From: Patescibacteria group bacterium
Lineage (GTDB): Bacteria > Patescibacteriota > Microgenomatia > UBA12405
Assembly: GCA_018902845.1 (NCBI GenBank)
Contig: JAHIPV010000013.1
Coordinates: 82,766 to 146,765, forward strand
Direction: 5' to 3'
Length of the DNA: 64,000 nucleotides
The position numbers and the translations under genes were made by a program. The notes beneath the pieces were generated by a model. That model saw only the letters and a list, made by a program, of their open reading frames with translations. It did no database searches and was not told where the DNA came from. Numbering within the stretch: the stretch's first letter is position 1; each line of letters opens with the position of its first letter. Positions 4,991 through 57,293 of the stretch are shown here, piece after piece.

Positions 4991-5198
4991 AAGAATAAAA
5001 GGATCAACCCCGCCACGGCGGGGAGGAAAGTCCGGACCACAAAAGGCAAAAAAAGCTCTGCTACAGAGACGAGAAATGTGAAACGAGTATCTTTTTTGTG
5101 GAAATCTCAAAAATGAACGTTAATATCTAGCCTTTGAGAGTTCAAGGTAGAGAGAGTAGATAGATGATCCATAAACAAAATCCGGCTTATTTATTCTT
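4991..5198 (+). ncRNA. rnpB: RNase P RNA (rnpB), unusually small (~208 nt) with a reduced specificity domain
   Basis: P1 aagaataaa (4991-4999) pairs perfectly with tttattctt (5190-5198). P2 ggatc pairs with gatcc (5166-5170). P3 hairpin ccccgc-cacg-gcgggg. CR-I motif GGAGGAAAGTCCGGAC at 5024-5039. CR-V-like ACAAAATCCGGCTTAT at 5175-5190. The 3' part tagatagatgatcc...aaatccggcttat parallels E. coli M1 RNA CTAGATGAATGAC...AACCCGGCTTAT. Confidence 0.55.
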
Positions 5199-6224: not shown

Positions 6225-6420
6225 ACTCGTCATCCCGAACTTGCCCCCCCGTCATCCTGAGTGAGTTTTACGACCGAAGGATCCCCTCGGAACCAAATCT
6301 TGCCTTTGAGATTCTTCGCTCCCGCTCAGAATGACGCCCCACCCGTCATCCTGACCCCCCGTCATCCTGAGCTTGCCGAAGGATCCCCTAGCCATTTTTT
6401 CACCATTTTTTCAATCTCTT
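6225..6420. repeat. Cluster of family A repeats (GTCATCCTGAG...GAAGGATC), several units in both orientations
   Basis: cgtcatcccgaacttg, cgtcatcctgagtgagttttacgaccgaaggatcccctcgg, ctcagaatgacg (inverted), cgtcatcctgaccccccgtcatcctgagcttgccgaaggatcccc. The last unit encodes the miaA C-terminus. Confidence 0.7.
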
Positions 6421-7555
6421 TTTTATATTCTTTTTTTCCTATATCAAAAATTATTGCTTCCTTTCTTTTTTTAAACCACACCCGCTGTCTTTTTGCATAT
6501 CTATGTTCATCCATTCTCCACCTCTCAATAGCGTCACCCCGAGCACACGCCGTCATCCTGAGTCTGTCGAAGGATCCCATCGGAATTTTACCCACCTTTT
6601 CGAAATACTCTTCAAACTCTTTATACGCCAGCGTATTCATCCCCGGATCACTCCACTTATATTTTTTCAGCAACCCCTCAATTTCACCCAACAGTCCCTG
6701 TTTTAATCTTTTTTTAATTCTTTTATCAATTCTTTTTTTAATTAATTCTCTATTTCCTGTTAGTGACACATGCAAACAATCAAAATCAATGTCACCCCGC
6801 CCTGGCGGGGTCTCCGTCGGAATCTTACTCAACCTAATCTCTATCTTTCTTATCAATCTATGTCTATTATTTTTTTCTGAATTGTTTAATTTATCAAAAC
6901 TCTTTTTATCCAAAACCTTATAAACATTTCTAATCAGACCTGTAGAACACTTGTTCAATATCAATCTTAATAACTTATTCGGCTTTATCAAAAAATTCTT
7001 TTTCATATTCAAAATCGCATCAATATAAAATCCCGTACCTCCCACCACGATTGGTAGCTTTCCTTTTCCATAAATTTCCTCAACAGCTACTTCAAAACAC
7101 CCCAACCAATCCACTACGCTAAATTCTTTATCCGGTTCTACCACATCCAGCAGCCAAACCGGCATACTATCAATTTCATAATATCCAACATCAAACGCGT
7201 CATTCCGACCGAAGCGGAGGAATCTCTGAACTCGTTTCAGTATTCCAACATCAAACGCGTCATTCCGACCGAAGCGGAGGAATCTCTGAACTCGTTTCAG
7301 TATTCCAACATCAAAATTAAAAAGTTTGGAAATTGTGATTTGTGATTTGTGATTTACCGGCAGGTCTTTGCCGGTTCCTATATCCATTCCCTTATAAATT
7401 TGCCTAGAATCAGCCGAAATCAATTCCCCGTTAAACTTTTTGGCCAATTTCACCGCCAAACCTGTTTTTCCGCTGGCCGTCACTCCAGAAATAATTAAAA
7501 GCCTTTGTTTTACCATGTAAGTTTCACACATTAAATCTAAACTCAACCACATCAT
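6362..7555 (-). CDS. miaA: tRNA dimethylallyltransferase MiaA with in-frame repeat-derived insertions
   Basis: ISGVTASGKTGLAVKLAKKFNGELISADSRQIYKGMDIGTGK is the MiaA P-loop N-terminus. At 397 aa it is about 80 aa longer than typical MiaA. The extra segments map to repeat copies: the tandem 60-bp unit at 7181-7300, family A at 6536-6600, a caccccgccctggcgggg unit at 6781-6830, and family A at 6362-6400. Confidence 0.75.
   Translation of the reverse strand: MMWLSLDLMCETYMVKQRLLIISGVTASGKTGLAVKLAKKFNGELISADSRQIYKGMDIGTGKDLPVNHKSQITISKLFNFDVGILKRVQRFLRFGRNDAFDVGILKRVQRFLRFGRNDAFDVGYYEIDSMPVWLLDVVEPDKEFSVVDWLGCFEVAVEEIYGKGKLPIVVGGTGFYIDAILNMKKNFLIKPNKLLRLILNKCSTGLIRNVYKVLDKKSFDKLNNSEKNNRHRLIRKIEIRLSKIPTETPPGRGDIDFDCLHVSLTGNRELIKKRIDKRIKKRLKQGLLGEIEGLLKKYKWSDPGMNTLAYKEFEEYFEKVGKIPMGSFDRLRMTACARGDAIERWRMDEHRYAKRQRVWFKKRKEAIIFDIGKKEYKKEIEKMVKKWLGDPSASSG
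7181..7300. repeat. Perfect 60-bp tandem duplication (2 copies plus a partial third) of a GTCATTCCGAC...GAACTCGTTTCAG element inside miaA
   Basis: 7201-7260 is identical to 7261-7320. It translates in-frame to FDVGILKRVQRFLRFGRNDA twice. Related elements occur at 58591-58640, 43207-43262 and 15641-15670. Confidence 0.85.
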
Positions 7556-12196: not shown

Positions 12197-13300
12197 CTAC
12201 TTTTTCTCTTCTTTTTCACCATCCTTTGACATTTTCCATATTTTTTCCTTAACTTCTTCGGTCAATTTTGGATGTTCTCCTAGATATCTTTTTGATACTT
12301 CTCTTCCTTGTCCAATAGTTTCGCCGTTTAGTTTATAAAAAGCACCGGCCCTATTGATAACACCATACTCCACCGCCAGGTCCAAAATTCCGCCAAAAAT
12401 AGATATACCCTCAGTATTCATCATTTCAATTTCACATGTTTTAAATGGTGGCGCCACTTTATTTTTTATAATTCTGACTCTATGTTGCGAACCGATTGAT
12501 TCACCGCTTGAAGTTTTGATATTGGCAATTTTTCTCATGTCAATTCGTATTGAAGCATAAAACTTTAAGGCCAACCCCCCTGGGGTTGTTTCCGGATTAC
12601 CAAACATAACTCCAATTTTTTGCCTGATCTGATTGGTAAAAATTACCACTGATTTTGATTTAGAAATTGCTCCAGCCAATTTTCTTAATGCTTGAGACAT
12701 TAGTCTGGCCTGCACACCCATCATCGATTGCCCCATTTCTCCTTCTATCTCGGCCTTTGGCACCAAAGCCGCCACCGAATCAATCACAATCACATCAACT
12801 GCATTTGATCTGACCAATGTTTCAACAATCTCCAATGCCTGTTCTCCGTTATCCGGTTGGGATATTAACATCTCATCTACATTTACTCCCACCACCTCAG
12901 CCCTAGCTGGATCCAAGGAATGTTCCGCGTCTACAAAGGCAGCCGATCCTCCCAATTTTTGGGCTTCGGCAATTACATGTAAACAAAAAGTTGTTTTTCC
13001 CGAAGCCTCGGGTCCAAATACTTCACATATCCTGCCTCTTGGCATTCCGCCCACACCAAGAGCAATGTCTATAGGCAAAGATCCAGTTGGAATTACGTCA
13101 ATTTTCATATCTTCTCTTCTGTCTCCCATTTTCATAATGGCTCCCTCGCCATATTCTTTTTTGATCTGTTCCATGGCAATTTTTACTGCCTCTAATTTTT
13201 TTTGTTTTAAGCTTTCTTCTTTTGGCTTTCTGCCTCTTTTTGCTTTAACCTTTTTTACTTTTTTTACATTTGCCTTTGCTTGTACTTTTGCATCTGTCAT
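12197..13300 (-). CDS. recA: Recombinase RecA with a ~25-aa lysine-rich N-terminal extension
   Basis: [20 protein letters not shown] is Walker A. Also [14 protein letters not shown] and the L2 loop region. Stop codon is TAG. The N-terminus [31 protein letters not shown] precedes the conserved [22 protein letters not shown]. Confidence 0.9.
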
Positions 13301-13319: not shown

Positions 13320-13810
13320 ATTTAATTATTAAATTATTTATTATTTTTTTCCCCCTCGTCATCCTGAGTGTAGCGAAGGATCTCCTTTTATTTAATTGTT
13401 TTTGAATTTAATTGAATTGATTTAACTTTTAATTCAAAAAAACTCTTTTCTAAAAACATTTAACATTGTCAAAATTATCATGTCAATACCCAAAACCAAA
13501 TAAAACCCGAAACTGTCTTACCATCCATAATACTTATTTTTGCCTGCCTCACAGTTACACTCAAACACACTTGTCACCCCGCCGTGGCGGGGCCCCGCCA
13601 GAATCAAGCCTCAATCCATTGTCATCCTGAACCACAACCGTCATCCCAAGTCCTCCCTCCGTCATCCTGAGTAAGTCTTACGACCGAAGGATCCCCTCGG
13701 AAAATACCTGTCATTGCGAGGAGTTCGACGACGTGACAACGTGTCCGCCTGTGGAGGATCCCGTCGGAATCAAACCAGTTTTGACAGTCAAAAGTAGTAT
13801 TGCAAGTTGT
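13320..13810. repeat. Repeat-rich intergenic region (families A and C and a gtcattgcgagga-type unit)
   Basis: cgtcatcctgagtgtagcgaaggatctcc at 13351. At 13617-13790 there are three gtcatcc units, then gtcattgcgaggagttcgacgacgtgacaacg, then gtccgcctgtggaggatcccgtcggaatc. Confidence 0.65.
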
Positions 13811-13869
13811 GAAATTTGAAAATTGTGTTTCATTTATGTAGGTCCCAAAAAATGGGAAAGGAGATCAGA

Positions 13870-14499
13870 ATGAACGTCCGAAAGTTTCGAGAAGTAGTTT
13901 TCACGATCGTAGTAGCAGCGGTTGTCTTGGGAATCCTCGTAGTGGCAGTTTACGGGATTATGAGGGGTATTGACTATGTCTTTACCCCTGCTCCGGTCCC
14001 CAGCCAGACCCCCGCCCCGTCGGCCGTTCCGCCCAGCCCGACTCCCACCCTGAGGCAAGAGGCCCCCACCCTTGAGCCAGAGCCGACCGACGCCCCGACT
14101 CTTCCGGTCGCCAGCCCGACCCCCGTCTCCGCCGTCGAGCTCGTAGTCCGCGACGCCTGGACCACGGGGAAAGACCAAGAGCAGAGTGGAGTTGTCTATC
14201 GCCCGGTCCAAGTCACGCTGGTCGGCGCGATTGCGATCGAAAGTGTCGCTGGGGACTATGTAGTGGACAACTACGTAGTTTCGGTAGCCGAAGATGCGTC
14301 TTCGACTACCATTAACCTTCTGTTCGTCATTGACAACGCCAACGCCATCGCCACTAAAGTCGTCGTTAACGGGATCATATTGACCAATCCTTCTTCTGGG
14401 GGCAAGGAGTTTTTCTTCGAGCGTTTCGCCGGTCCCACCGACGGCGGCGGCGGCGACGTAGAGCCCACTCCGACCCTGGCCGACCCACCCCGTCCGTAA
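13870..14499 (+). CDS. Membrane-anchored Pro/Thr-rich protein encoded in a GC-rich (~58-60%) island; probable horizontal acquisition
   Basis: RBS ggaaaggag, then ATG at 13870. N-terminal TM VVFTIVVAAVVLGILVVAVY, a PT-rich linker, then a ~120-aa domain. Codons end in G/C throughout, unlike neighbouring genes. Confidence 0.5.
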   Translation: MNVRKFREVVFTIVVAAVVLGILVVAVYGIMRGIDYVFTPAPVPSQTPAPSAVPPSPTPTLRQEAPTLEPEPTDAPTLPVASPTPVSAVELVVRDAWTTGKDQEQSGVVYRPVQVTLVGAIAIESVAGDYVVDNYVVSVAEDASSTTINLLFVIDNANAIATKVVVNGIILTNPSSGGKEFFFERFAGPTDGGGGDVEPTPTLADPPRP

Positions 14500-14539
14500 C
14501 TAGATAGTTCGTTCACAGTGCAACCCCCGCACCCGCTTC

Positions 14540-14580
14540 ACCACGTGGGGCAAGAGCCGAGTCTCTTGCCCCACGGCCTT
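14540..14580 (+). terminator. Strong GC hairpin, terminator-like
   Basis: cgtggggcaagag-ccgag-tctcttgccccacg forms a 13-bp perfect stem. It is followed by gacgggtgcttttttt. Confidence 0.5.
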
Positions 14581-14594
14581 CGGGCTTAAATTGG

Positions 14595-14921
14595 ATGAAG
14601 ACGGGTGCTTTTTTTATGTATAATTTACTTGTGTTATCAAAAAAAATTCTCAAACAAGTCAAAGACATAATTTTCCCACTTGTTGACAACCAAACAAAAG
14701 TTTTTATCTTTGGCTCCAGAGCCAACAATAAGGCCAGAAAATTTAGCGATATTGACATTGGTCTAGAAGCAGACAATCAAATTAATTTTGAAACCATCGG
14801 TCAAATCAAACAGGCCTTTGAAGAATCCGACCTGCCTTACAATGTAGATATAGTTGAATTTTCCAAACTACCAAAAAAATTTAAAAAAGTAGCTCAAAAA
14901 AACATTATTTATTTAAATTAA
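14595..14921 (+). CDS. Minimal nucleotidyltransferase (MNT, HI0073-like), antitoxin of an MNT/HEPN pair
   Basis: FIFGSRANNKARKFSDIDIGL fits the GS-x9-13-DxD NTase motif. The true start is probably M at 14616. Confidence 0.6.
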   Translation: MKTGAFFMYNLLVLSKKILKQVKDIIFPLVDNQTKVFIFGSRANNKARKFSDIDIGLEADNQINFETIGQIKQAFEESDLPYNVDIVEFSKLPKKFKKVAQKNIIYLN

Positions 14922-14929
14922 AAACAAAA

Positions 14930-15313
14930 GTGACAAAAAAACAATCATTACTGACTGATTTAAAAAAAACCACCGCCAGTCTAGAAAAAGTTTTGAAATT
15001 ACCGGAAAGCGAAATCAATCGCGATGCCAGTATCCAAAGGTTCGAATTTACCTTTGAATTAAGTTGGAAACTAATGCAGGAATTAGTGGCAGATGTCAAA
15101 AAAGGCGCTTACGGACCAAGAACTGTCATCAGAGAAGCGGCCAATATAGAGCTAATAAGTAATCCCAAAAAATGGCTCTATTTTTTGGACAAAAGAAATT
15201 TAACGGTACACACTTACAACGAAGCCATGGCAAAAGAAATGTATCAGGTGGCCAAAGAATTTATCTCTCATGTAAAAAATCTAACAAAACAAGTCAAAGA
15301 ATATCTATCTTAA
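14930..15313 (+). CDS. HI0074-family nucleotidyltransferase substrate-binding protein (HEPN)
   Basis: RDASIQRFEFTFELSWKLMQ is characteristic of PF08780. It immediately follows the MNT gene. Confidence 0.6.
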   Translation: MTKKQSLLTDLKKTTASLEKVLKLPESEINRDASIQRFEFTFELSWKLMQELVADVKKGAYGPRTVIREAANIELISNPKKWLYFLDKRNLTVHTYNEAMAKEMYQVAKEFISHVKNLTKQVKEYLS

Positions 15314-15586
15314 TCTCTTCTCAATTTTTATAGCCCATCCTTCAATCAATGCCTTTGTAATTTTTTCAAAAGCCAATGTGATGTCTCTTTGATATTGGCT
15401 CTGGGAAATACCCATTTTTTTAGCTGATTCATGTTGATCTAATTTTTCAACATATCTTAACCTCAATGCTTCTAATTCGTCCTCAGTTATACTCACTTCT
15501 TTTAATTGAGATAACGGTATCCCTCTGGGCTTAAAATAAATTTCCCGAAAATTAAATCTAATTTTTCTTTTACACCTTCTTCGCAT
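15305..15586 (-). CDS. DUF134/UPF0251 family predicted DNA-binding protein
   Basis: CKRKIRFNFREIYFKPRGIPLSQLKEVSITEDELEALRLRYVEKLDQHESAKKMGIS parallels the DUF134 consensus, including the sigma-70 region-4-like HTH. Confidence 0.55.
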   Translation of the reverse strand: MRRRCKRKIRFNFREIYFKPRGIPLSQLKEVSITEDELEALRLRYVEKLDQHESAKKMGISQSQYQRDITLAFEKITKALIEGWAIKIEKRLR

Positions 15587-20290: not shown

Positions 20291-20400
20291 TCCAGCCTCG
20301 CCATCTTTTGACAATCAAAATTTTATTTTTCTCTTATTTTTTTATTTTTCAAAAATTCCCTAGTCCGCCTTTGGCGGATAAATTTGTGATTTGCTTTCCC

Positions 20401-20520
20401 CTTCCGTCATCCTGAGTGAGTTTTACGACCGAAGGATCTAGCGAAGCGTTTTTTTTGGAAATTCTTTAGTCCGCCTTTGGAGGAAGAATTTCGGATTTGG
20501 GATTTAGGATTTATTAAAAA
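20401..20520. repeat. Composite repeat: family A, family C (tagtccgcctttggcgga) and family D units
   Basis: ccgtcatcctgagtgagttttacgaccgaaggatctagcgaagcg, then ttggaaattctttagtccgcctttggaggaagaatttcggatttgggatttaggattt. Confidence 0.6.
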
Positions 20521-20539
20521 TTTCCCGCTCCCAGCGTGG

Positions 20540-20665
20540 TCGGCATTGTACCGAAAAATTCGAACTATATATATGAAATTATAACACTCGCCCCGCACGC
20601 TGTGCCTGTCCGCCTGTGGCGGAGGCGGTCGGCACGGCGAAAACAGCGGGGCTCCGCCGACGCAA
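20540..20665. repeat. IR-A left copy; its reverse complement is 27681-27804
   Basis: tcggcattgtaccgaaaaattcgaactatatatatgaaattataacactcgccccgcacgctgtgcctgtccgcctgtggcggaggcggtcggcacggcg matches the reverse complement of 27700-27804 with about 2 mismatches. Similarity decays over the outer ~20 bp. Confidence 0.85.
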
Positions 20666-27680: not shown

Positions 27681-27804
27681 TGTTCAATCGAGCCCCGCGT
27701 TTTACGCCGTGCCGACCGCCTCCGCCACAGGCGGACAGGCACGGCGTGCGGGGCGAGTGTTATAATTTCATATATATAGTTCGAATTTTTCGGTACAATG
27801 CCGA
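27681..27804. repeat. IR-A right copy (reverse complement of 20540-20665), directly abutting IR-B
   Basis: See IR-A left. Reading the minus strand through 27895-27681 gives continuous R2-TCGG-R1. Confidence 0.85.
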
Positions 27805-27895
27805 CAATTCATGAATGTTCTGATTTTTTAAAGTGGCGCAGGCCAAACTCGCACCGTTGGCCAGCGCCAAGAATCCGTCATTTTGAAATTTTGGG
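27805..27895. repeat. IR-B left copy; its reverse complement is 29340-29430 (91 bp, identical)
   Basis: caattcatgaatgttctgattttttaaagtggcgcaggccaaactcgcaccgttggccagcgccaagaatccgtcattttgaaattttggg is the reverse complement of 29340-29430. It encodes the same peptide RPKFQNDGFLALANGASLACATLKNQNIHEL on opposite strands. Confidence 0.9.
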
Positions 27896-29339
27896 CGTAC
27901 AATAAAAGTAGTTATAGAAACGCAAAAATTTTTATGAAGTACGTTGCTTACTGCCGTAAATCTACTGATGAACCTGATCGCCAAATTCTTTCAATTGAAG
28001 CTCAAATTGCCGAAGTAAAAGAATTCGCCCAAAGAGAAAACCTAGAAATTGTCAATTTTATTATCGAAAGTCGCACCGCTCGAAAGCCGGGTCGACCAGA
28101 ATTCCAAAAAGTGTTGCAAATGCTTGAGACTGGCAAGGTTGGTGGCATCATTTCATGGCATCCGGATAGGCTAGCTAGAAATTCAATCGATAGCGGTCAA
28201 CTGATATATCTTCTAGACATTGGAAAACTACTTGATTTAAAGTTTCCAACTTTTTGGTTTGATAACACTCCCCAAGGCAAATTTATGCTTAATATCGCTT
28301 TTGGCCAATCCAAATATTATGTCGATAACCTGTCCGAAAATGTAAGGCGCGGAATAAGGCAAAAACTCCGCAGGGGTGAATGGCCATCAAAAGCTCCCTT
28401 TGGTTATCAAATGGATTCCACCAAAAAGTTGATAGTTGACCGTAAAACTGGTAAATATGTTAAACAAATTTTTGAAATGTATGCCACCTGTCGGTATACA
28501 TATGTTGATTTGCAAAACTTTTTGTTCGATCACAAAATTTATTCTAAGCATGGTAATAAAATCGACATTGGTACATTAAAACGAATTCTGATCGACCCCA
28601 TCTATTACGGAACAATGAAGATGAAGGGCGAATTCTTTTAGGGAGTCCATAAACCCATCATCACCAAGAAACTTTTTGACAAAGTTCAAACGGTAATCAA
28701 TCGTAAATCAAAAAATTATTTATCCAACAAAACTGATTTTCACTTCTTAGGTCTAGCCACCTGTGGCGAATGTGGCTCGTCCATTACCGCTGAAAAACAT
28801 CGTAAGCATTACTTGCGTCGAAACATTGATGTTGATTACCACTATTATCGGTGCAGTAAGAAGAAAATGCCATGTCATCAATCATATCTACCATCATCAA
28901 TATTTGAAAATCAATTAAGACAAATAATTTTTAAGGCTTCAATATCACCATTTGTCGCCAAAAAGTTTCTTGATTGGGCTAGTGATGATGTTAATAGTGA
29001 AACCCAAAATACATCAGATGAGATTAATACCCTATCTTCGGCAATTTCAGATACAGATTCCAAACTTAATAATCTTCTCGATGGTTACATTGATAAAACC
29101 ATCGATCCACTTGATTACCAAAGAAAGAAAAACGAATTAATTCAATATAAAGTTACCACCGAGGAGAAAATCAAAGAAATTAATACCAATGGTTCGAGTT
29201 GGCTCGAACCATTTACGGAATTTGTTAATAGTGCGCTACTAGCGCACAAAATCGCGCGTGCAAAAAATAATTGCACCGATTTACTAATCGGTGCCAAAAC
29301 TGTCGGCTCGAACTACTTTTTATTGGATAAAACAATACA

Positions 29340-29430
29340 CCCAAAATTTCAAAATGACGGATTCTTGGCGCTGGCCAACGGTGCGAGTTTGGCCTGCGCC
29401 ACTTTAAAAAATCAGAACATTCATGAATTG
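29340..29430. repeat. IR-B right copy, ending exactly at the 3' end of tRNA-Pro
   Basis: See IR-B left. The junction reads gaattgTCGG|ggatacaggattcgaacc. Confidence 0.9.
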
Positions 29431-29504
29431 TCGGGGATACAGGATTCGAACCTGCAACCTCACGCACCCCATGCGTGCGCGCTAGCCAATTGCGCCAATC
29501 CCCG
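29431..29504 (-). tRNA. tRNA-Pro (anticodon GGG)
   Basis: Minus-strand fold: acceptor CGGGGAT/ATCCCCG, D-stem GCGC/GCGC, anticodon stem CACGC/GCGTG with loop ATGGGGT (U33, anticodon GGG, G37), T-arm GCAGG-TTCGAAT-CCTGT, discriminator A. CCA is not encoded. Confidence 0.75.
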
Positions 29505-33373: not shown

Positions 33374-33417
33374 TTTTTTCTGCTATTCTTAATTTGTGCA
33401 TAAACCAAAACTCTGCA
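33374..33417 (+). repeat. 44-bp direct repeat copy 2; contains the GTG start and signal-peptide start of the LTD protein
   Basis: ttttttctgctattcttaatttgtgcataaaccaaaactctgc. Confidence 0.8.
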
Positions 33418-34631
33418 TCCCCCTTTTCTTTTTTCTAATTTTCCTTTTGTACAATAACACAAGCTACGCACAAACACCAACTATTATTACGAATCCAAAT
33501 TCGGGAATTTATCTTAATGAAATCATGCCAAATCCGCCAGATGGCGATGAATGGGTTGAAATTTATAATAACAACAATTTTTCTATTATTTTAGAAAATT
33601 GGAAGATTCAAGATGAAACCACAAAAACAAGGCCTATTCCAACTGAAATTATCCAAGCTAAGTCTTATTATGGTTTTTCTGTCGGAAGCGGATTCCTGAA
33701 CAATGGTGGTGATACGGCTAAATTATTAAATGATCAAGGTGTTAATATAAATGAATTCAACTATTCTAAAAGTTCAACGGATTTAAGTTGGTCGAAACAA
33801 ACAGATATTATTTGGTGCGAAGCCGATCCAAGTAAAGGAGAAATCAACGGCACTTGTTTTAAAGCAGCCCCAACTAATACTTCCACTCCAACCAACACTC
33901 CCACCAATTCTCCAACTCCCACCCAAACTCCCACCCCCACAGTCACCCCCACCCCACTCCCTCAACTTTCAGTTCGCATCATCGACATACCCTCTTACAC
34001 CACCCAAAACCAAATTTTTACCATCAAATTTTTAATCGAAAATGCTCCATCTCAAAAAGAATATTATGCCAAGGCTTTTGGTGGTGTTAACGATTATTCT
34101 TCTATACAAACCGAAAACAACGGCAAGTGGCTAAACTATACCGGTAGTTCATGGACTGAATTTCGGTCTTTTAAAGTTGGCGTTGGTGGCTCCGGCAGTT
34201 TTATCTTAACCGCCAAAGTCAAAGAATCCGCCCCAACCGGGGAGTACAAGGTCCAAATCCGTATCAAGCCAACCGACGAGGAAAAAACAACCGATAGCGA
34301 TCTTCACATCCTTCAAGTTTCCCAATCAGTGCCAACACTCGTCCCAACCCCAACCCCCACCCCCACTTCAAAACTTTCTCCCACCCCGACCTTGTCTTCC
34401 ACAGAAAAACTAAAAGAAAAATTATCAGACAAAGATTACGACGGCGATGTTCTGGGTATCACTGATATCACCATGACACCCACCCCAACCAAAACAAATT
34501 CAAAAGAAAAATCCGGCAATCAAAACATTTTCCCGGCTATTTTTATGTTAATTGGTGGCGGACTCTTACTTATTCCTGTCATAATTACCAAAATCAATGA
34601 ATGGAAAAACAACAAACAAACCAACACATAA
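33396..34631 (+). CDS. Cell-surface protein: signal peptide, lamin-tail domain (LTD), Pro/Thr linkers, beta-rich domain, C-terminal TM anchor
   Basis: Signal MHKPKLCIPLFFFLIFLLYNNTSYA. LTD signature IYLNEIMPNPPDGDEWVEIYNNNNFSIILENWKIQD. PT tracts TPTNTPTNSPTPTQTPTPTVTPTP. C-terminal IFPAIFMLIGGGLLLIPVII. Confidence 0.6.
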   Translation: MHKPKLCIPLFFFLIFLLYNNTSYAQTPTIITNPNSGIYLNEIMPNPPDGDEWVEIYNNNNFSIILENWKIQDETTKTRPIPTEIIQAKSYYGFSVGSGFLNNGGDTAKLLNDQGVNINEFNYSKSSTDLSWSKQTDIIWCEADPSKGEINGTCFKAAPTNTSTPTNTPTNSPTPTQTPTPTVTPTPLPQLSVRIIDIPSYTTQNQIFTIKFLIENAPSQKEYYAKAFGGVNDYSSIQTENNGKWLNYTGSSWTEFRSFKVGVGGSGSFILTAKVKESAPTGEYKVQIRIKPTDEEKTTDSDLHILQVSQSVPTLVPTPTPTPTSKLSPTPTLSSTEKLKEKLSDKDYDGDVLGITDITMTPTPTKTNSKEKSGNQNIFPAIFMLIGGGLLLIPVIITKINEWKNNKQTNT

Positions 34632-35075: not shown

Positions 35076-37385
35076 TTGACATACTCTAACAAAATCATTT
35101 ATCCTAAATTTACCAGTATCATGAAAAAAAGAAACGGTTTCTCAACAATTGCAGCCATGATATTAATGGTGTTGGCACTACCGGTTGCTGTGGTTTTAGT
35201 CAAAAATAATCAGGAATTAAGAAAATCAGCCGCCGGTAATCACTTCATATGTTCTTGGCATCGTCTCTACAATTTATCCCAAAAATGGTTTAGTATTTGT
35301 GAAGGACCGGAGAATTACAAAGATGCCATAGGTCGCGGAGAAAATTTGGGTTATTGTCAAATGCTTCAAGATGACAGTCATTACAATGGCTGTCGAGCCG
35401 ATGGTTATCCGAGCAACGACAAAGAAGTCAGGTGGGTTTACAAAGGCCCCAGAGGGGATACATGTACATACAAATGGGATTTTTGCAGTTCAGAAGCCTC
35501 AGGAAAAAATTGCGAACAAGAAATCAGTCGAAGCTGGAATTTTGCCGAATGTGCTAAGTGTAAACAAATTGATGTTAATTGGAATATGATCATCCCCAGA
35601 GAAGATCAACCCATATATCCGGATGACCCCGTCGATGGTGCTCAGCCAATACCACCGGCTACCAATGACGGCAGTCATATATTTCCAATGGTTGTTATTA
35701 AAAAAATAACCGCCTACAACTGGCATCCGGCCATGACCAAAACCAACAACAATACCAAAATAGATTGGTCCAGTCCTCAAACCCTTATGGACTTTAGAAT
35801 CAAAATTTTTAACCCAAGCAACACAGAGATTAGTTCTACAGACATTCTTCATGGAGATTCTCACATCAACTGTTCCTATGCCACCACTGATTCTTATGAT
35901 GAAAGAGACAACCTAAACCATTATGTAATTTGTAATCTGCAAAACTATATAATCTATACAAGGGAAGATTTAACAAATTTCCAATATCCTCAACAATATT
36001 CTCTGAAAGTTTGGGTCAAAATTGCCTCCTACGGAGAAGATGGCTGGGTCGATTATGATTACACCTCTCCGGATAACAAACTATTTAACTGTGTCAGTAC
36101 TGTTACCGGTCCAACCATTACTCCCACCCCAACTTTTACTCCCACCCAAACTCCAACCTCAACCATAACTCCAACTTTAACGCCCACCCAAACTCCCACC
36201 CCAACTCCCACCCAAACTCCAACTCCAACCACAACCCCCACTCCTACTCCCACTAACACCCCAACTCCAAAGCCAAATATCTGTGGTTACACTCCCTGCG
36301 ATAACTCATCCAGTCCCTGTCAATCTGGTCTAATTTGTGTCGACGCCAACAATGGCAATTCATACTGCTCTATGCCTCAATTTGAAGATGCTTGTGTCGC
36401 CAGACCTTCCTTCTCGTCTTGTTGTACGGCCCCGCCTCCAACCTCAACCCCAACCCCAACCATAACCCCGACTCCAGCCGAAATTTGCAAAGGCCAGTTT
36501 GAGATAAAGATTTGGAAAGATTGGAGAGATTCAAGTTGCAATGGTTGCAACAGGATAATTGATAATTGTGATCACGCTTGGAGCGATAAAACTTATCAAT
36601 ACACCATAACTTATTATGATTCAAACAATACACAAGTTGGTTCCGTTGCTCATGGCAGTTGCGTTGCCAGCAATGGTTCCTGTGGGCCTTTTGATCTAAA
36701 CATTCCCTCCGGTGGACACGCCATAGTAAAAGTTACTCAAGAATCAATGACTCAGGGATGGGCCAGCATAACTCAAGTTGAGCAGTCTTTAACCATCTAT
36801 GAAGATCAAAAAGGAATTTTCAAATATTTAATTTGCCTCGACAGAATGTGTAACGACACCTGTATTGCTTCAGGGGTGGTCAATGGACAAGAAAATTTCT
36901 CAGAAATAATTACTCTAAATTCAAGTTCATGTCAGCCACTTTCATCAGTTCAAAATACGCCGACTTCAACCAGAAATACACCGACCCTAGCCATACCACC
37001 AACCGGTACTCCGCGGCCAACAAGTAGATCTCTACCTACACCTAAACCCACAATCTTAATTAGCGGATCTTGCGACACAGTTGGTGGCAAGTGTACATAC
37101 AAATGGAGATCTTGTAGCAATGGTCACATAGAAAGCAAAACAAGCAGTTGTCAAAAATGGTATTACAAATGTTGCTTACCACCCCAGTCTAGTAATGATG
37201 TTAAACCCACTCCCACCACAAAGCCTGTTCCCACCGCAAAACCAGTCAGTCAATCTTGTAGTACATCCGGTGGTAAGTGCACCTACAAATGGAGATCTTG
37301 TGGCAATGGTTACGTTGAAAGCAAAAATAAAGATGAAAATAGTAGCTGTGGAGGGTGGTTTTACAAGTGTTGTTTACCGTTTTAA
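35076..37385 (+). CDS. Large secreted Cys-rich protein with PT-rich linkers and two C-terminal ~42-aa Cys modules
   Basis: Probable start at M 35121 (MKKRNGFSTIAAMILMVLALPVAVVLV). PT linkers TPTPTFTPTQTPTSTITPTLTPTQTPTPTPTQTP. C-terminal modules GSCDTVGGKCTYKWRSCSNGHIESKTSSCQKWYYKCCLP and QSCSTSGGKCTYKWRSCGNGYVESK...SCGGWFYKCCLP. Confidence 0.4.
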   Translation: MTYSNKIIYPKFTSIMKKRNGFSTIAAMILMVLALPVAVVLVKNNQELRKSAAGNHFICSWHRLYNLSQKWFSICEGPENYKDAIGRGENLGYCQMLQDDSHYNGCRADGYPSNDKEVRWVYKGPRGDTCTYKWDFCSSEASGKNCEQEISRSWNFAECAKCKQIDVNWNMIIPREDQPIYPDDPVDGAQPIPPATNDGSHIFPMVVIKKITAYNWHPAMTKTNNNTKIDWSSPQTLMDFRIKIFNPSNTEISSTDILHGDSHINCSYATTDSYDERDNLNHYVICNLQNYIIYTREDLTNFQYPQQYSLKVWVKIASYGEDGWVDYDYTSPDNKLFNCVSTVTGPTITPTPTFTPTQTPTSTITPTLTPTQTPTPTPTQTPTPTTTPTPTPTNTPTPKPNICGYTPCDNSSSPCQSGLICVDANNGNSYCSMPQFEDACVARPSFSSCCTAPPPTSTPTPTITPTPAEICKGQFEIKIWKDWRDSSCNGCNRIIDNCDHAWSDKTYQYTITYYDSNNTQVGSVAHGSCVASNGSCGPFDLNIPSGGHAIVKVTQESMTQGWASITQVEQSLTIYEDQKGIFKYLICLDRMCNDTCIASGVVNGQENFSEIITLNSSSCQPLSSVQNTPTSTRNTPTLAIPPTGTPRPTSRSLPTPKPTILISGSCDTVGGKCTYKWRSCSNGHIESKTSSCQKWYYKCCLPPQSSNDVKPTPTTKPVPTAKPVSQSCSTSGGKCTYKWRSCGNGYVESKNKDENSSCGGWFYKCCLPF

Positions 37386-39784: not shown

Positions 39785-40486
39785 ATGCGCATCCAAACCA
39801 CTATCATGAGTAGTGTTATGACAATGAAACTAAAAAAAATATTAAATATCTTTACTGCCTTAACCCAGCTACTATTAATACTATTAATAATACTAACTCT
39901 GGCCGTTACATTTTTATCCCGTCGCGGAATATCTAACCTTAGAGCCTTTGTAATTTCTACCGGTTCCATGGGTACCTCAATTCCCGCCGGCTCTCTTATC
40001 ATTACCCAGCCCCAAGATTCTTATCAAAAAGATGACATTATTACTTATTACACTAACGATTCTAACGGCAACCGCCAAAAACTGCCCACCACTCACCGCC
40101 TAGTCGAAGTAAAACAGGGCGAAAATTTAGGCTATCAAACCAAAGGTGATGGCAATCAAACTGTCGATCCATTTATCACTCCAGCCAAAAGTCTTATCGG
40201 TAAAGTAATTTTCCACTTGCCTTTTTTTGGTTATTTTAGTAATTTTGCCCAAAGCAGAAACGGATTTATATTCCTAATAGTCATCCCTGCTACTATTCTT
40301 ATATACGGTGAAATCAATACTATTTTTAAAGAAATTAATAAATTAATTAAAAAGAAAAAAGTAGGGGCGACCCTTGCGGTCGCCCGCAAGAAACATCTGT
40401 CATCACGAGGATCCGCCAACTGGCGGAGACGTGGTGATCCCGTCGGGATTGCCACATCCTCCGATAAATCGGAGTCTTCGCAATGA
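39785..40486 (+). CDS. sipW: Signal peptidase I, SipW (archaeal/ER S26B) type
   Basis: TM anchor, then STGSMGTSIPAGSLIIT. The motif is the S26B-type SGSMEP with the Ser nucleophile. It ends in a lysine-rich C-terminus. The true start is probably M at ~39824. Confidence 0.6.
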   Translation: MRIQTTIMSSVMTMKLKKILNIFTALTQLLLILLIILTLAVTFLSRRGISNLRAFVISTGSMGTSIPAGSLIITQPQDSYQKDDIITYYTNDSNGNRQKLPTTHRLVEVKQGENLGYQTKGDGNQTVDPFITPAKSLIGKVIFHLPFFGYFSNFAQSRNGFIFLIVIPATILIYGEINTIFKEINKLIKKKKVGATLAVARKKHLSSRGSANWRRRGDPVGIATSSDKSESSQ

Positions 40487-40495
40487 CAAACATAA
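40361..40495. repeat. Family B palindrome (GTAGGGGCGACCCTTGCGGTCGCCCGCA) plus a gtcatcacgagga unit, at the sipW 3' end and the N-terminus of the next gene
   Basis: gtaggggcgacccttgcggtcgcccgcaag at 40361, identical to 43155, 48396 and 62945. Then tgtcatcacgaggatccgccaactggcggagacgtggtgatcccgtcggg. Confidence 0.75.
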
Positions 40496-40496
40496 A

Positions 40497-43130
40497 ATGA
40501 AATTAAAAAAATTATTATTTTTACTAACTCTCACTCTCCTCTTTTGGGGCGGGGGAGTATCACCGGCTTTTGCCTATCTTGATGACACGGAAGAAAGTTT
40601 AAACAATCAGCTTAATTCCGCCGTTCTTGACTTGGAAGTCAGCTCAGATTCAGATTTTTCTAGTGGTGTTATCCCTGATCGTCTCACCCCTGATCAAGAC
40701 AGCAGCAGAAATATAGATCTATCAAAAACAACCATCAGTATTCCTCTTTGGCACAAAGTTTCTTATCAGGCCGTCGGCGCTACCGATTCTTATCCGGATC
40801 TTTGCAACGCTATCAATCTAAACACGTTTTACGACGCTACACCAAAATACACCGGTCCCCTTTCAGCTCTTTCCGATTTTACCGATGCCGATTTTTTCAT
40901 CGATTCCTCCACTCCTCAGCATTTTGTCTACAGCTTATCTCTTGGCACAACCGACCCCGATTTGCAAAATCGGACTTGCAAATTCAATTTGGTTTTTTCC
41001 GCCTGGCAGGAATTAAGCGATGGCACTTGGGGATTTGTTGATGAGGAAATTCTAGAAAATACAATTAGTTCCGGCGATTGGCAAAATCCACTTTCTGCTA
41101 TCACCGCAACTTTTAGTTCCGACGCCCAATCTGGTTTGCCTCTTATCATAGGCTACACCGCCAGTGACAATATTGATATTGACTATGTCCAGCTTTGCTA
41201 TTCTTTTGATCTAAACGATTGGAATTGCGACGATCCCAACTTAACAGATATTCCCAGTTCCCCCGGCTCTTTTAACTTCAACGCGCCGGAGGGAGACGGT
41301 CTTTATTATTTTGCCACTATTGCCTACGACAAAGAAGGCAATCAAGAAAACAAAGATTTACCGGACCCGGAAACCATTGGCCCCTTTGATTTTTACTCAG
41401 TTCAAATTGATACCCAAAACCCATACACTGTTTTATCTTTAGGCGAATTTGGCGACACAAGAAACGCCCAGGGAGATCAGCTCAATAATGGTAATTTTGA
41501 CAACGATTCTTTTTGGACTTGGGCAGGAGCCGGCCAACATCAATTGGTTAATAATACCGATCTTTCCGCAACTTCAATTGAGGTCAAAAGTCCCGATAAC
41601 TCCGCCTTGGTTGGCTGGCTAAACGACCCCGTCGGCACCGGTGGTCAGGATTACACCTATCAAATTTTAACCTTACCGGCTGATACACCCTCGACTCTAT
41701 CATTTTGGTATCGGGTAGTCGGCGGTGATCATGTCGACAACGATTATTTTCAGGCCACTATCATAGATGACAACAATCCTTCCGGCAACGAGACTATTAT
41801 TACTACCGGTTCTGATGAAATTGGCGGTTGGTACGATGACACTTATTGGCAAGAAATCACTCATTCCTTATCCGGCTGGAGCGGACAGAGCATCCGTCTT
41901 CATTTTTCTGTTGACAATAATCCTTCATCAAACACTTTTGCCCTGATAGACAATGTCAGAGTTACCGCTTCTCCTAATTATATTAATATCAACAATCAAA
42001 TAGTTCTAAACAGCAATGACACCGGTGCCGGAGTAGAAAAAACTTTTTATAAAACAGGTACAAATGCTTGGCAGGAATATTCGACTTCATTTAATCTGGC
42101 CAGTCAAGGGGTTAATACCAGTGATACTGTTTTGTTGTCCTATTATTCTACCGATTTAGTGGGAAACACCGAAACTGTCAGAACCATAGAATTAACAGCC
42201 TTTGGTGAAATCGAAACTCCACCCCAGCCCCAAGCTCAAATCACAGTATTTAGTCCCATGGTCCAAACATTCACGCCAATTTTATTAACAAAAGCCGAAG
42301 ATCCTAATCAGGACAGAATATTAATAACCGCATTTATACCGCAACCAAAATTTCATATGAATGAACTGGTTTGGCTAAAAAACACCCAAAGCTCTCCCGA
42401 TCTCAAAGCCGGTGACAATCCGTCCGATGACAAATTCCAGCCTGTTGATATAACAGAATGGCAAATTTGCCACACTGATTCATCACTGCCAAAGTATGAT
42501 GAAAATAACCAGGAGCAATACAACCCAACTCCGACTCCGGATGAATGTGTCAAAATTGAACCAAAGCTAAATCCGGATCAAGATCCCGATGACAAAAAAA
42601 CAGAAATTCCAACCGAAAAAGAGATTATACTTATTGCTGATTTCAAGCTAGACGATGACAAAGACACTATTTTCCTGCTCGACAAAGACAACAACATAAT
42701 TGACCAATACTCCTATGAATACAAAGAAGACAACACCGATCCGAAAAAAAACCATCTTTTCACTCGTGACCCGAATGATGATTACTCTTGGAAAGATCCG
42801 GAACAAAAAGATAACCTTTTGGAATATTATCTCTATTCATCTCTAAATCAGGACAAAGATACTGTTAATTTCAAGCTCTACGGTATGCCGGACAAAGATT
42901 CCTACCAACTAGAACTGCTTTATTTGTCAGAAAAACTGGAAAAAGGTGTTTATACTTTTCATGATTTTGATTCCAATGATCCGGATATAATTAAAGAAGA
43001 CATGTTTATGGGAACCTGCTCTACCGATGGCCTCGTCTGCACTCCAGACCCTCTTATAACTAATATCAATTACATCTTCACCCTCCACCAAGGAGAAAAC
43101 AACCAAATTTTAAAAAATGAAATCAATTAA
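40497..43130 (+). CDS. Very large (878 aa) secreted protein with SipW-cognate-like N-terminus
   Basis: MKLKKLLFLLTLTLLFWGGGVSPAFAYLDDTEESLNNQLNSAVLDLEV carries a signal plus the A-Y-x-D-x-E...N...LDL motif. No catalytic motifs. The upstream 123 nt of the track ORF is repeat-derived. Confidence 0.5.
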   Translation: MKLKKLLFLLTLTLLFWGGGVSPAFAYLDDTEESLNNQLNSAVLDLEVSSDSDFSSGVIPDRLTPDQDSSRNIDLSKTTISIPLWHKVSYQAVGATDSYPDLCNAINLNTFYDATPKYTGPLSALSDFTDADFFIDSSTPQHFVYSLSLGTTDPDLQNRTCKFNLVFSAWQELSDGTWGFVDEEILENTISSGDWQNPLSAITATFSSDAQSGLPLIIGYTASDNIDIDYVQLCYSFDLNDWNCDDPNLTDIPSSPGSFNFNAPEGDGLYYFATIAYDKEGNQENKDLPDPETIGPFDFYSVQIDTQNPYTVLSLGEFGDTRNAQGDQLNNGNFDNDSFWTWAGAGQHQLVNNTDLSATSIEVKSPDNSALVGWLNDPVGTGGQDYTYQILTLPADTPSTLSFWYRVVGGDHVDNDYFQATIIDDNNPSGNETIITTGSDEIGGWYDDTYWQEITHSLSGWSGQSIRLHFSVDNNPSSNTFALIDNVRVTASPNYININNQIVLNSNDTGAGVEKTFYKTGTNAWQEYSTSFNLASQGVNTSDTVLLSYYSTDLVGNTETVRTIELTAFGEIETPPQPQAQITVFSPMVQTFTPILLTKAEDPNQDRILITAFIPQPKFHMNELVWLKNTQSSPDLKAGDNPSDDKFQPVDITEWQICHTDSSLPKYDENNQEQYNPTPTPDECVKIEPKLNPDQDPDDKKTEIPTEKEIILIADFKLDDDKDTIFLLDKDNNIIDQYSYEYKEDNTDPKKNHLFTRDPNDDYSWKDPEQKDNLLEYYLYSSLNQDKDTVNFKLYGMPDKDSYQLELLYLSEKLEKGVYTFHDFDSNDPDIIKEDMFMGTCSTDGLVCTPDPLITNINYIFTLHQGENNQILKNEIN

Positions 43131-57121: not shown

Positions 57122-57293
57122 CTTCTTAGCAGTCTATCACCTAACCTGCCAACCGTCAAATAGAGTTAGTAAATGGGATTCTTCTCCGTTTAAGGCGGAT
57201 CAGAATGACGTCTTTTCCATTCGTCATCCTGAGTGCAGCGAAGGATCCCGTTGGAAATGTAAGATCACCCTGTTTCTAACGTATAATACCACT

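What the first reader, a model, noticed from the sequence alone, without database searches (positions are those of the whole stretch)
13840..14590. 0.75-kb GC-rich (~58-60%) island encoding a membrane-anchored PT-rich protein, flanked by repeat clusters
Composition shifts abruptly from ~33% to ~60% GC at 13840-14590. Third codon positions are G/C-rich even outside the Pro/Thr-rich linker, unlike the PT linkers of genes at 33-37 kb.
A 13-bp perfect GC hairpin follows. The island sits between a repeat cluster and a toxin-antitoxin pair.
This most probably reflects recent horizontal acquisition from a high-GC donor, or a chimeric assembly.
Basis: seen in the sequence. Interest (0 to 1): 0.55.

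Follow-up and report, generated by a model that had tools for sequence, protein, structure and literature searches.

The report
Foreign-composition orphan surface-protein gene islet
A small GC-rich stretch in an AT-rich Patescibacteria genome is a real, correctly assembled, strain-specific gene for a membrane-anchored protein with no known relatives, probably picked up from an unidentified GC-richer organism: an ordinary kind of event, unusual only in how complete an orphan the gene is.

Summary
Window 13840-14590 is 59.4% GC against 37.1% for the window. It is by far the strongest GC-rich segment. The ORF 13870-14499 has GC3 0.68, against 0.26-0.40 for 44 other ORFs, and its C-terminal domain alone has GC3 0.66. 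A 13-bp perfect hairpin, a repeat cluster and an MNT/HEPN toxin-antitoxin pair flank it as described.

Chimeric assembly is excluded as far as sequence can show: five contigs, from four samples and one MAG, in three repositories, are 100% identical across both junctions.

The closest relative found (RecA 90-92% identical) lacks window 13542-15315. That block holds part of the repeat cluster, the GC-rich gene and the toxin-antitoxin pair; the relative has 114 nt there instead. The gene therefore lies in lineage-specific DNA.

The protein has an N-terminal membrane anchor, a 50-residue Pro/Thr stalk, a roughly 100-residue beta-rich domain and a Gly/Pro tail. It has no credible homologue among 5.8 billion protein clusters, in an exhaustive HMMER pass over 1.84 billion representatives, or in Pfam, NCBIfam, PHROGs, PDB, phage and plasmid collections.

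Horizontal acquisition is the best reading, but no donor or mobility signature was found. Low interest: a new, uncharacterised member of a known kind.

The parts
13342..13770 (.). Cluster of short GC-rich palindromic (REP-like) repeats of families dispersed through this genome's intergenic regions. Units lie at 13350-13383 and 13655-13702; related units lie at 13571-13600, 13617-13650 and 13706-13770.
   Evidence: GTCATCCTGAG with up to 2 mismatches: 34 sites in the window against 7.6 expected. Families D3/D5/D10/D11 have copies at 1.8, 6.2-6.6, 20.4, 43.2, 47.6 and 57.2 kb. The segment 13573-13767 is 59% GC. Two Logan contigs break here, at 13666/13668.
13542..15315 (.). Lineage-specific block of 1774 bp: the right part of the repeat cluster, the GC-rich gene and the MNT/HEPN pair. 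It is absent from the closest relative, L009, which has 114 unrelated nt here between DUF134 and the recA upstream region.
   Evidence: L009 29-384 aligns to window 15679-15316 (87%). L009 499-695 aligns to window 13541-13344 (82%). L009 752-3738 aligns to recA-recX-rny (78%). tblastn and local alignment confirm the boundaries.
13857..13862 (+). Shine-Dalgarno-like AAGGAG, 7 nt before the ATG at 13870.
   Evidence: Read from the sequence.
13870..14499 (+). Orphan gene of 209 codons (NCBI calls it from the ATG at 13852, 215 aa, 'hypothetical protein KKC08_04490'). Layout: TM anchor at codons 3-38 (13876-13983), Pro/Thr/Ala/Ser stalk at codons 40-88 (13987-14133), beta-rich domain at codons 89-190 (14134-14439), Gly4 + Pro/Thr tail at codons 191-209 (14440-14496).
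   Evidence: ORF listing. GC1/2/3 = 0.65/0.48/0.68. An open frame this long occurs in 17 of 2000 shuffles. AlphaFold gives helix 3-38 with block-mean pLDDT 82-97 and a low-confidence all-beta C-domain. Only self-hits in protein searches.
14529..14615 (+). Compound GC-rich stem-loop (14529-14608) containing the 13-bp perfect hairpin at 14544-14575 and a small GCC-UUCG-GGC hairpin, followed by a T7 tract (14609-14615). Probable intrinsic terminator and the 3' end of the GC-rich island.
   Evidence: MFE -54.2 kcal/mol, z = -5.41, 0 of 200 shuffles as stable. Inverted repeat I5. The simple terminator scan missed it because the stem is branched.
14616..14921 (+). Minimal nucleotidyltransferase (MNT/MntA-type antitoxin). 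The start is uncertain: 14595, 14616 or 14631. Homologues are 94-98 aa, which fits GTG 14631.
   Evidence: Pfam Polbeta PF18765 at 1.2e-14 and NTP_transf_2 at 3.8e-11. Homologues are at most 54% identical, and those named by a source are Patescibacteria/CPR. GC 0.30 and GC3 0.29, host-like.
14930..15313 (+). HEPN-domain protein (HepT-like toxin) carrying an R-x4-H motif (RNLTVH).
   Evidence: Pfam NTase_sub_bind PF08780 at 1.2e-33 and HepT-like at 5.5e-05. The motif is read from the translation. GC3 0.34.
12197..13300 (-). recA, the conserved left flank of the variable spacer.
   Evidence: Pfam RecA at 3.4e-126. Conserved with recX and rny in relatives.
15305..15586 (-). DUF134 gene, the conserved right flank of the variable spacer.
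   Evidence: Pfam DUF134 at 4.9e-16. 93% identical protein in L009, directly next to the recA upstream region.

Best explanation
The island is a genuine, correctly assembled protein-coding gene carried on lineage-specific DNA in the recA-DUF134 spacer of a Patescibacteria (CPR) genome. Its base composition, synonymous codon choice and amino-acid make-up are those of an organism with roughly 60-65% GC. It was therefore most probably acquired horizontally from an unidentified GC-richer source and has not yet ameliorated.

It carries its own ribosome-binding site and its own strong intrinsic terminator. It sits next to a toxin-antitoxin pair that has host-like (CPR-like) composition and so entered separately. 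The spacer behaves as a small hotspot for accessory DNA, lined with the genome's dispersed GC-rich palindromic repeats.

The product is inferred to be a bitopic membrane protein, with a positively charged N-terminus inside and a single TM helix. A roughly 50-residue Pro/Thr stalk would hold a small beta-rich domain away from the membrane on the cell surface. This architecture is typical of envelope or adhesion proteins. Its actual ligand or function is unknown.

Shown: the composition anomaly, coding periodicity, assembly reproducibility, absence from one relative, and orphan status. Inferred: the direction of the event (gain), the donor's GC, the topology and the surface role.
For: - Composition: 59.4% against 37.1% GC, and GC3 0.68 against 0.26-0.40. 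Codon likelihood z = -7.1, also -7.0 for the C-domain alone. GAC 10/11, GAG 8/11, AAC 6/7, no AGA or TTA. Lys 1.9% against 9.9%. GARP 0.33 against 0.19.
- Coding: GC2 is far below GC1 and GC3. AAGGAG lies 7 nt upstream. An open frame this long occurs in 17/2000 shuffles. The N-terminal helix is confidently predicted. The CDS has no excess RNA structure (z +0.19 sense, -1.30 antisense) and no Rfam match.
- Not a chimera: five contigs identical over the stretch each covers, three of them across the full 2.5 kb, and four NCBI protein accessions.
- Accessory: L009 (RecA 90-92%) lacks 13542-15315. None of the 8 other recA loci from relatives encodes the protein.
- Not host-derived: no similarity to the rest of the window at DNA level (best E 0.5) or protein level (only PT low-complexity matches).
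- Terminator: -54.2 kcal/mol, z -5.41, followed by T7.
Against: - No donor or homologue of any kind was found, although some of the same public assemblies are in the protein collection.
- No integrase, tRNA or significant target-site duplication lies at the borders. The 8-bp direct repeat TTTATGTA is matched or exceeded in 212/2000 shuffles and 531/3000 random genomic pairs.
- Only one informative relative exists, and it differs by the whole 1.77-kb block, so gain in this lineage against loss in L009 is not formally resolved.
- The first 39 codons have intermediate GC3 (0.51).
- All copies are 100% identical, so selection on the protein (dN/dS) cannot be measured.
- Expression is untested and no sigma-70-like promoter was found on the + strand.
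Confidence: 0.6

Rival explanations
1. Assembly chimera: a fragment of a high-GC organism was joined into a CPR contig by the assembler.
For: The GC change is abrupt. Repeats lie to the left, and two Logan contigs break there at 13666/13668.
Against: All five contigs, including the two Logan ones, span both GC transitions (about 13985 and about 14610) with 100% identity. They come from different samples and repositories. The breaks occur in the host-type repeats, not at the GC boundary. The gene has a 5' region, SD and T-tract continuous with the AT-rich flanks.
Confidence: 0.02
2. A native, very fast-evolving or de novo-born lineage-specific gene rather than a transfer. The GC richness would reflect origin from GC-rich non-genic sequence (such as repeat arrays) or a local mutational bias, which would also explain why no homologue exists anywhere.
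For: Strict orphan status in 5.8 billion clusters and 1.84 billion representatives. The genome does generate GC-rich intergenic repeats right next to the gene. The structure of the C-domain is predicted with low confidence.
Against: No detectable similarity between the island and any repeat family or other window sequence. Codon-position periodicity, a well-formed signal anchor, a stalk and strand-rich domain architecture, an SD and a dedicated terminator all suggest a mature gene. Synonymous sites are GC-rich throughout the 102-codon domain, and no known local process in a 37% GC genome accounts for that.
Confidence: 0.15
3. Not a protein gene: the GC-rich island is a structured non-coding RNA or other element, and the ORF is a by-product of the rarity of stop codons in GC-rich DNA.
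For: GC-rich intergenic islands in AT-rich genomes are a classical signature of structured RNAs (established knowledge). A long antisense ORF (13834-14211, 125 aa) also exists. The 3' part is very strongly structured.
Against: The CDS folds no better than shuffles (z +0.19 sense, -1.30 antisense). There is no Rfam match at E<=1 apart from one chance-level snoRNA hit. The GC1/GC2/GC3 periodicity is strong, and SD, ATG and a TM helix are present. An open frame this long is seen in only 0.85% of shuffles.
Confidence: 0.04
4. A promoterless mobile cassette (ORF + 3' hairpin) inserted with an 8-bp target duplication (TTTATGTA at 13833-13840 and 14613-14620) between the MNT/HEPN operon's promoter and its start codon, in the manner of an integron or other cassette.
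For: The direct repeat brackets the GC-rich segment exactly, and the second copy contains an ATG in frame with the NTase gene. The cassette-like layout is SD, ORF, then a structured 3' end.
Against: The repeat is not significant. No RYYYAAC...GTTRRRY attC core sites are seen in the 3' region. No tyrosine recombinase was annotated anywhere in the window, and the only recombinase is a serine resolvase 13 kb away. An empty-site pattern search in metagenomes found nothing. NTase homologues are too distant (at most 54%) to compare upstream DNA.
Confidence: 0.08

Closest known systems
Small horizontally acquired genomic islets or 'ORFan' accessory genes with atypical GC and codon usage, including the genomic islands and transferred genes reported in groundwater Patescibacteria (PMC12455944)
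   Same: Compositional and codon-usage outlier. Presence/absence difference against a close relative. Located in an intergenic hotspot next to a toxin-antitoxin module. Encodes a hypothetical protein.
   Different: Only about 0.77 kb and a single gene. No integrase, tRNA or direct repeats. No donor homologue, whereas most transfers documented in that study were between Patescibacteria and had identifiable partners.
Bitopic cell-envelope proteins with Pro/Thr-rich stalks, such as PT-linker surface proteins of Gram-positive bacteria and the PT-repeat proteins encoded at 33.4-37.4 kb of this window
   Same: An N-terminal membrane anchor followed by a long Pro/Thr/Ala/Ser low-complexity spacer and a small globular beta-rich domain.
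   Different: No sequence relationship beyond low complexity. The host's own PT linkers use A/T-ending codons (P/T-codon GC3 0.46-0.49 against 0.79). No LPXTG, lipobox or known domain is present.
Bacterial Ig-like domains Big_3_5 (PF16640) and Cna_B (PF05738)
   Same: The only non-self HMMER hits are giant repeat proteins built of these domains. The best is an ungapped 64-residue stretch at 38% identity to one Big_3_5 repeat. A beta-rich prediction is compatible with a sandwich fold.
   Different: The significance comes from summing near-identical repeats. The three hits belong to unrelated families. Pfam models give no hit even at E<=10. hhalign against the repeat profile gives 6% probability.
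MNT-HEPN (MntA/HepT) toxin-antitoxin modules (the neighbouring pair, not the island itself)
   Same: Adjacent small NTase (PF18765/PF01909) and HEPN (PF08780, R-x4-H) genes in the same orientation.
   Different: The GC-rich gene is not part of the module. It has a different composition, its own terminator, and no counterpart upstream of homologous NTase genes, whose contexts were not examined in detail.

Membership tests
Horizontally acquired genomic islet | Base composition and codon usage deviate strongly from the host genome | tested here: met
   59.4% against 37.1% GC. GC3 0.68 against 0.26-0.40. Synonymous-codon likelihood z = -7.1.
Horizontally acquired genomic islet | Patchy distribution: absent at the orthologous site of close relatives | tested here: met
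   L009 (RecA 90-92% identical) has DUF134 next to the recA upstream region, with 114 nt in place of window 13542-15315. There is only one informative relative, and gain against loss is not polarised.
Horizontally acquired genomic islet | Homologues in a plausible donor lineage (phylogenetic incongruence) | tested here: not met
   Only self-hits in the 5.8-billion-cluster search. The exhaustive HMMER pass over 1.84 billion representatives gave only three repeat-protein artefacts. There was nothing in viral contigs, phages or plasmids.
Horizontally acquired genomic islet | Mobility signatures: integrase or transposase, tRNA target, flanking direct repeats | tested here: not met
   No recombinase within 13 kb. 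The tRNAs are at 29.4 and 52.5 kb only. The 8-bp flanking repeat is not significant.
Assembly chimera | The junction is not reproducible in independent assemblies | tested here: not met
   Five contigs from NCBI, ENA (two) and Logan (two) are 100% identical across both GC transitions. Read-level coverage is not testable with these tools.
Structured non-coding RNA | Folding energy well below shuffled controls, or a match to a known RNA family | tested here: not met
   z = +0.19 (sense) and -1.30 (antisense) for 13870-14499. No credible Rfam match. Only the 3' terminator region is structured.
Big_3_5 / Cna_B Ig-like domain | Significant match of a single domain to the family profile | tested here: not met
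   No Pfam hit at E<=10. hhalign probability 6%. The best single-repeat BLASTP score is 38.9 bits, which by my estimate is not significant at library scale.
Integron gene cassette | attC site with paired core sites (RYYYAAC / GTTRRRY) and a nearby IntI tyrosine recombinase | tested here: not met
   Inspection of 14497-14625 shows no such core sites. No tyrosine recombinase appears in the Pfam annotation of the window's called genes. No attC covariance model was available.
MNT-HEPN toxin-antitoxin (neighbouring genes 14616-15313) | Adjacent NTase-fold and HEPN-fold genes, with HEPN carrying R-x4-6-H | tested here: met
   PF18765 and PF01909, then PF08780 and HepT-like. RNLTVH is in the HEPN translation. 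Toxicity and antitoxin activity are not testable here.
Bitopic (signal-anchor) surface protein | Single N-terminal TM helix with positive-inside N-terminus and an extracytoplasmic remainder | tested here: inconclusive
   The sequence MNVRKFRE, then about 22 hydrophobic residues, then RG. AlphaFold gives helix 3-38 with block-mean pLDDT 82-97. Topology and surface exposure are inferred, not tested, and no dedicated TM or signal predictor was available.

The most novel reading that the evidence does not exclude
The gene could be a host-interaction protein captured by this presumably episymbiotic CPR bacterium from its GC-rich host or from that host's virus. In that case its composition would be a fingerprint of the unknown partner organism. 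Alternatively it could be a true de novo gene. Either way, a mature-looking surface protein with no credible homologue among about 15 billion predicted proteins would be a marker of very recent innovation in a streamlined genome.
Probability: 0.1. Interest if true: 0.5.

Novelty: new member of a known kind. Interest (0 to 1): 0.2.

Why it matters
If the reading is right, this is one more example that even streamlined CPR genomes keep small hotspots where foreign or strain-specific genes accumulate. Here the hotspot holds a surface protein and a toxin-antitoxin pair. Strain-specific surface proteins are plausible determinants of host attachment in episymbionts.

The island's composition (about 60-64% GC, GC3 about 0.7-0.8) could be used as a weak clue when looking for co-occurring donor or host organisms in the same samples. 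Beyond that the case is ordinary. The gene is already deposited as a hypothetical protein, and nothing about its anatomy suggests a new mechanism.

Tried and rejected
1. Target-site duplication or cassette insertion. TTTATGTA brackets the island, but an exact shared 8-mer or longer occurs in 10.6% of shuffles and 17.7% of random window pairs. An empty-site pattern search of metagenome contigs found nothing.

2. Comparing the NTase upstream region in other genomes, to test nested insertion. The best homologues are only 54% identical, which is too distant.

3. Fold assignment. Two single-sequence AlphaFold runs gave pLDDT 35-43 for the C-domain, so fold search was not run, because matches would be meaningless.

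4. Big_3_5 / Cna_B relationship. This was rejected as a repeat-summing artefact.

5. Alternative-frame or antisense ORFs of the island against Pfam: nothing.

6. Structured RNA: rejected.

7. Origin from the genome's own GC-rich repeats: no similarity.

8. DGR target. There is no repeat of the C-domain sequence (template) in the window, and no reverse transcriptase appears among the Pfam-annotated genes.

9. Phage, plasmid or viral origin: no protein or DNA match.

10. recA-based search of species-representative genomes gave only distant relatives (at most 73% RecA) with non-conserved upstream synteny.

11. Literature search for the accessions of the source assemblies: none found.

Full report
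**What the window is.** The genes around the finding are recA (12197-13300, -), recX, RNase Y, HU and YchF on one side. On the other side are a DUF134 gene, a CsoR-type repressor and copper-handling genes. The protein encoded by the island is deposited in NCBI as 'hypothetical protein KKC08_04490 [Patescibacteria group bacterium]'. The window is 37.1% GC.

**Check of the observation.** The stretch 13840-14590 is 59.4% GC. A log-odds scan places the maximal GC-rich segment at 13985-14585 (63.6% GC, score 84). The runners-up score 21 or less and are 70-300 nt, several of them dispersed repeats. In 200-nt windows GC peaks at 0.705 (14000-14199) and falls to 0.325 by 14600-14799.
- The ORF 13870-14499 has GC1/GC2/GC3 = 0.65/0.48/0.68, while all 44 other long ORFs have GC3 of 0.26-0.40.
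GC3 is 0.66 in the non-linker C-domain. Pro/Thr codons end in G/C 79% of the time, against 46-49% in the PT-repeat genes at 33.4-37.4 kb.
- The 13-bp perfect hairpin is at 14544-14556 / 14563-14575.
- The left flank is a cluster of GC-rich repeats. The right flank is a nucleotidyltransferase + HEPN pair (Pfam).
- Small corrections: the background is 37% rather than 33%, and the first 39 codons (the membrane anchor) are only 45% GC with GC3 0.51, so the sharp rise is at about 13985.

**Is it an assembly artefact?** The exact protein is found on at least 14 contigs in NCBI, JGI, ENA and Logan. I fetched five of them: NCBI GCA_018897325.1, two ENA k141 contigs, and two Logan contigs from runs SRR11548473 and SRR6516043. 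Each is 100% identical to the window over the stretch it covers. The Logan contigs begin at 13666/13668, inside the host-type repeat cluster, yet they still span both GC transitions. Several assemblies from different samples give the same junctions, so a chimera is very unlikely. Read-level coverage could not be examined.

**Is it a gene?**
- An AAGGAG lies 7 nt before the ATG at 13870.
- The three codon positions differ in GC in the way expected for a coding region of a GC-rich organism.
- An open frame this long arises in 17 of 2000 shuffles of the island.
- The N-terminus (MNVRKFRE, followed by about 22 hydrophobic residues and RG) is predicted as a helix (residues 3-38) with block-mean pLDDT 82-97.
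- The coding region folds no better than shuffled sequence as RNA: z = +0.19 sense and -1.30 antisense. Rfam gives nothing credible.
- Downstream, 14529-14608 forms a branched GC-rich stem that includes the perfect hairpin: -54.2 kcal/mol, z = -5.41, 0 of 200 shuffles as stable. Seven T follow it directly. I read this as an intrinsic terminator. The simple terminator scan missed it because of the branched loop.
- I therefore treat the island as SD + ORF + terminator.

**The protein.** It has 209 residues: a TM anchor, a roughly 50-residue Pro/Thr/Ala/Ser stalk (40-88), a roughly 100-residue Val-rich domain predicted to be all-beta, and a GGGG/Pro-Thr tail.
- Pfam, NCBIfam, PHROGs and PDB sequence searches give nothing significant.
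- The word-indexed search of 5.8 billion clusters returns only the protein itself.
- The exhaustive HMMER pass over 1.84 billion representatives, using the C-domain alone, returns the protein itself plus three repeat proteins: Cna_B x13, Big_3_5 x12, and an unannotated 4-repeat protein. Their scores are sums over near-identical repeats and they belong to unrelated families. The best single-repeat alignment is 38.9 bits, which by my estimate is not significant at library scale. A profile of the Big_3_5 repeats aligns with 6% probability. I reject homology and keep only 'beta-rich, possibly sandwich-like'.
- Single-sequence AlphaFold gave pLDDT 35-43 for this domain in two runs, so no fold search was attempted.

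**Foreign or native?** Several lines point to DNA that evolved in a GC-richer genome.
- Synonymous codon choice is far outside the host range. The mean log-likelihood under host usage is -1.41, against -1.04 +/- 0.05 for host ORFs (z = -7.1), and z = -7.0 for the C-domain alone.
- Usage includes GAC 10/11, GAG 8/11 and AAC 6/7, with no AGA or TTA.
- Amino-acid content is shifted as well: Lys 1.9% against 9.9%, GARP 0.33 against 0.19, FYMINK 0.18 against 0.35.
- The island shares no sequence with the genome's own GC-rich repeats or with anything else in the window (best E 0.5). It has no paralogue.
- By contrast, the neighbouring toxin-antitoxin genes are host-like (GC3 0.29 and 0.34). Their homologues that carry a source name are Patescibacteria/CPR.

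**Comparison with relatives.** recA-based scans found nine related loci. The closest is L009 (JGI contig Ga0180007_10035405). Its RecA is 90-92% identical and it shows 78% nucleotide identity over recA-recX-rny.
- In L009 the DUF134 gene (93% identical protein) is directly followed by the recA upstream region.
- L009 29-384 matches window 15679-15316, and L009 499-695 matches window 13541-13344.
- 114 unrelated nucleotides stand in place of window 13542-15315.
- The 1774-bp block is therefore lineage-specific. It carries the right half of the repeat cluster, the GC-rich gene and the MNT/HEPN pair.
- None of the other eight recA loci encodes the orphan protein, the NTase or the HEPN protein nearby, but their upstream synteny differs anyway.
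- Gain in the window lineage is the parsimonious reading. It rests on one informative relative.

**How it got there.** This is unresolved.
- No integrase or transposase lies within about 13 kb. The only recombinase in the window is a serine resolvase at about 27.9-28.6 kb. No tRNA is adjacent.
- An 8-bp direct repeat, TTTATGTA, brackets the island exactly (13833-13840 and 14613-14620), and the second copy contains an ATG in frame with the NTase gene. This suggested a cassette inserted between the TA operon's upstream region and its start codon.
- However, a shared 8-mer or longer is found in 10.6% of shuffled controls and 17.7% of random window pairs. An empty-site pattern search in metagenomes returned nothing. 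NTase homologues are too distant to compare upstream DNA.
- No attC-type core sites are visible. The cassette idea is kept only as a low-probability rival.

**Flanking repeats.** The left cluster consists of short GC-rich palindromic units, such as GTCATCCTGAG...CGAAGGATCC. They recur in many intergenic regions of the window: 34 sites against 7.6 expected, with families listed. They are a property of this genome, not of the island. They explain the 59% GC of 13573-13767 and the contig breaks in the Logan assemblies.

**Best explanation and rivals.**
- Most likely (about 0.6): a real orphan gene of foreign composition, acquired horizontally from an unsampled GC-richer source into a small accessory-DNA hotspot between DUF134 and recA. 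It encodes a bitopic envelope protein that displays a small beta-rich domain on a Pro/Thr stalk.
- Rivals: a native or de novo, very fast-evolving gene (0.15); a cassette insertion with an 8-bp duplication, which is a sub-variant of the main reading (0.08); a non-coding RNA with a spurious ORF (0.04); an assembly chimera (0.02).
- HGT and genomic islands are already documented in groundwater Patescibacteria (PMC12455944), so the phenomenon is not new.

**Verdict.** The chimera alternative is refuted as far as sequence data allow. The HGT interpretation is reasonable, but it lacks a donor and a mechanism. The one notable aspect is that the gene has no credible homologue at all, despite a mature architecture. 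Interest is low (0.2). It is a new, uncharacterised member of a known kind.

Noticed in passing
window 4991-5198 (+): The RNase P RNA matches the archaeal Rfam model RF00373 (90.7 bits, gathering score 84, E 8e-24) better than the bacterial models of the same clan. It is only 208 nt long, with two large internal deletions (28 and about 50 model positions), while the conserved core motifs (GAGGAAAGUCC, ACAGA-ACG, UGAAACG, GGCUUA) are kept. This looks like a strongly reduced RNase P RNA in a Patescibacteria genome.
   Followed up: partly
window 20539-20654 / 27690-27805, and 27801-27899 / 29336-29434: There are two pairs of long, nearly perfect inverted repeats. One pair (116 nt, 97%) flanks about 7 kb of housekeeping-looking genes: Mur ligase, a TPP enzyme, NlpC/P60 and aspartate-semialdehyde dehydrogenase. 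The other pair (99 nt, 99%) flanks a serine recombinase (Resolvase PF00239, about 27934-28641) and abuts tRNA-Pro (29430-29504, -). This could be a recombinase-driven invertible or mobile segment.
   Followed up: no
window-wide intergenic regions, e.g. 1826-1859, 6229-6600, 13342-13770, 20390-20447, 40356-40442, 43150-43265, 48391-48452, 57207-57271, 62942-63003: Several families of short GC-rich palindromic repeats are dispersed in intergenic regions of this AT-rich genome: GTCATCCTGAG...CGAAGGATCC, GTAGGGGCGACCCTTGCGGTCGCCC, and GTCATTGCGAGGATCCGCC...GGCGGAGACGTGGCAATC. They account for most of the other short GC spikes, and two public assemblies break at them.
   Followed up: partly
window 33396-34631, 35076-37385, 40374-43130, 43348-44982: A group of large genes, mostly without Pfam hits (LTD and fn3 in two), contains long Pro/Thr tandem repeats encoded with A/T-rich codons. 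They are probably native surface proteins, and they served here as the internal control for PT-linker codon usage.
   Followed up: partly
window 14595-14631: The start of the MNT nucleotidyltransferase gene is ambiguous: ATG 14595 lies inside the terminator stem, ATG 14616 follows the T-tract directly, and NCBI uses GTG 14631. Homologues are 94-98 aa, which favours 14631. None of the candidates has an obvious Shine-Dalgarno sequence. The strong terminator just upstream raises the question of how the TA pair is transcribed.
   Followed up: partly
window 7184-7303: A perfect 60-nt tandem duplication lies inside or next to the 3' part of the IPPT (miaA-like) ORF region. It contains another GC-rich repeat unit (GTCATTCCGACCGAAGCGGAGGAATC).
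   Followed up: no
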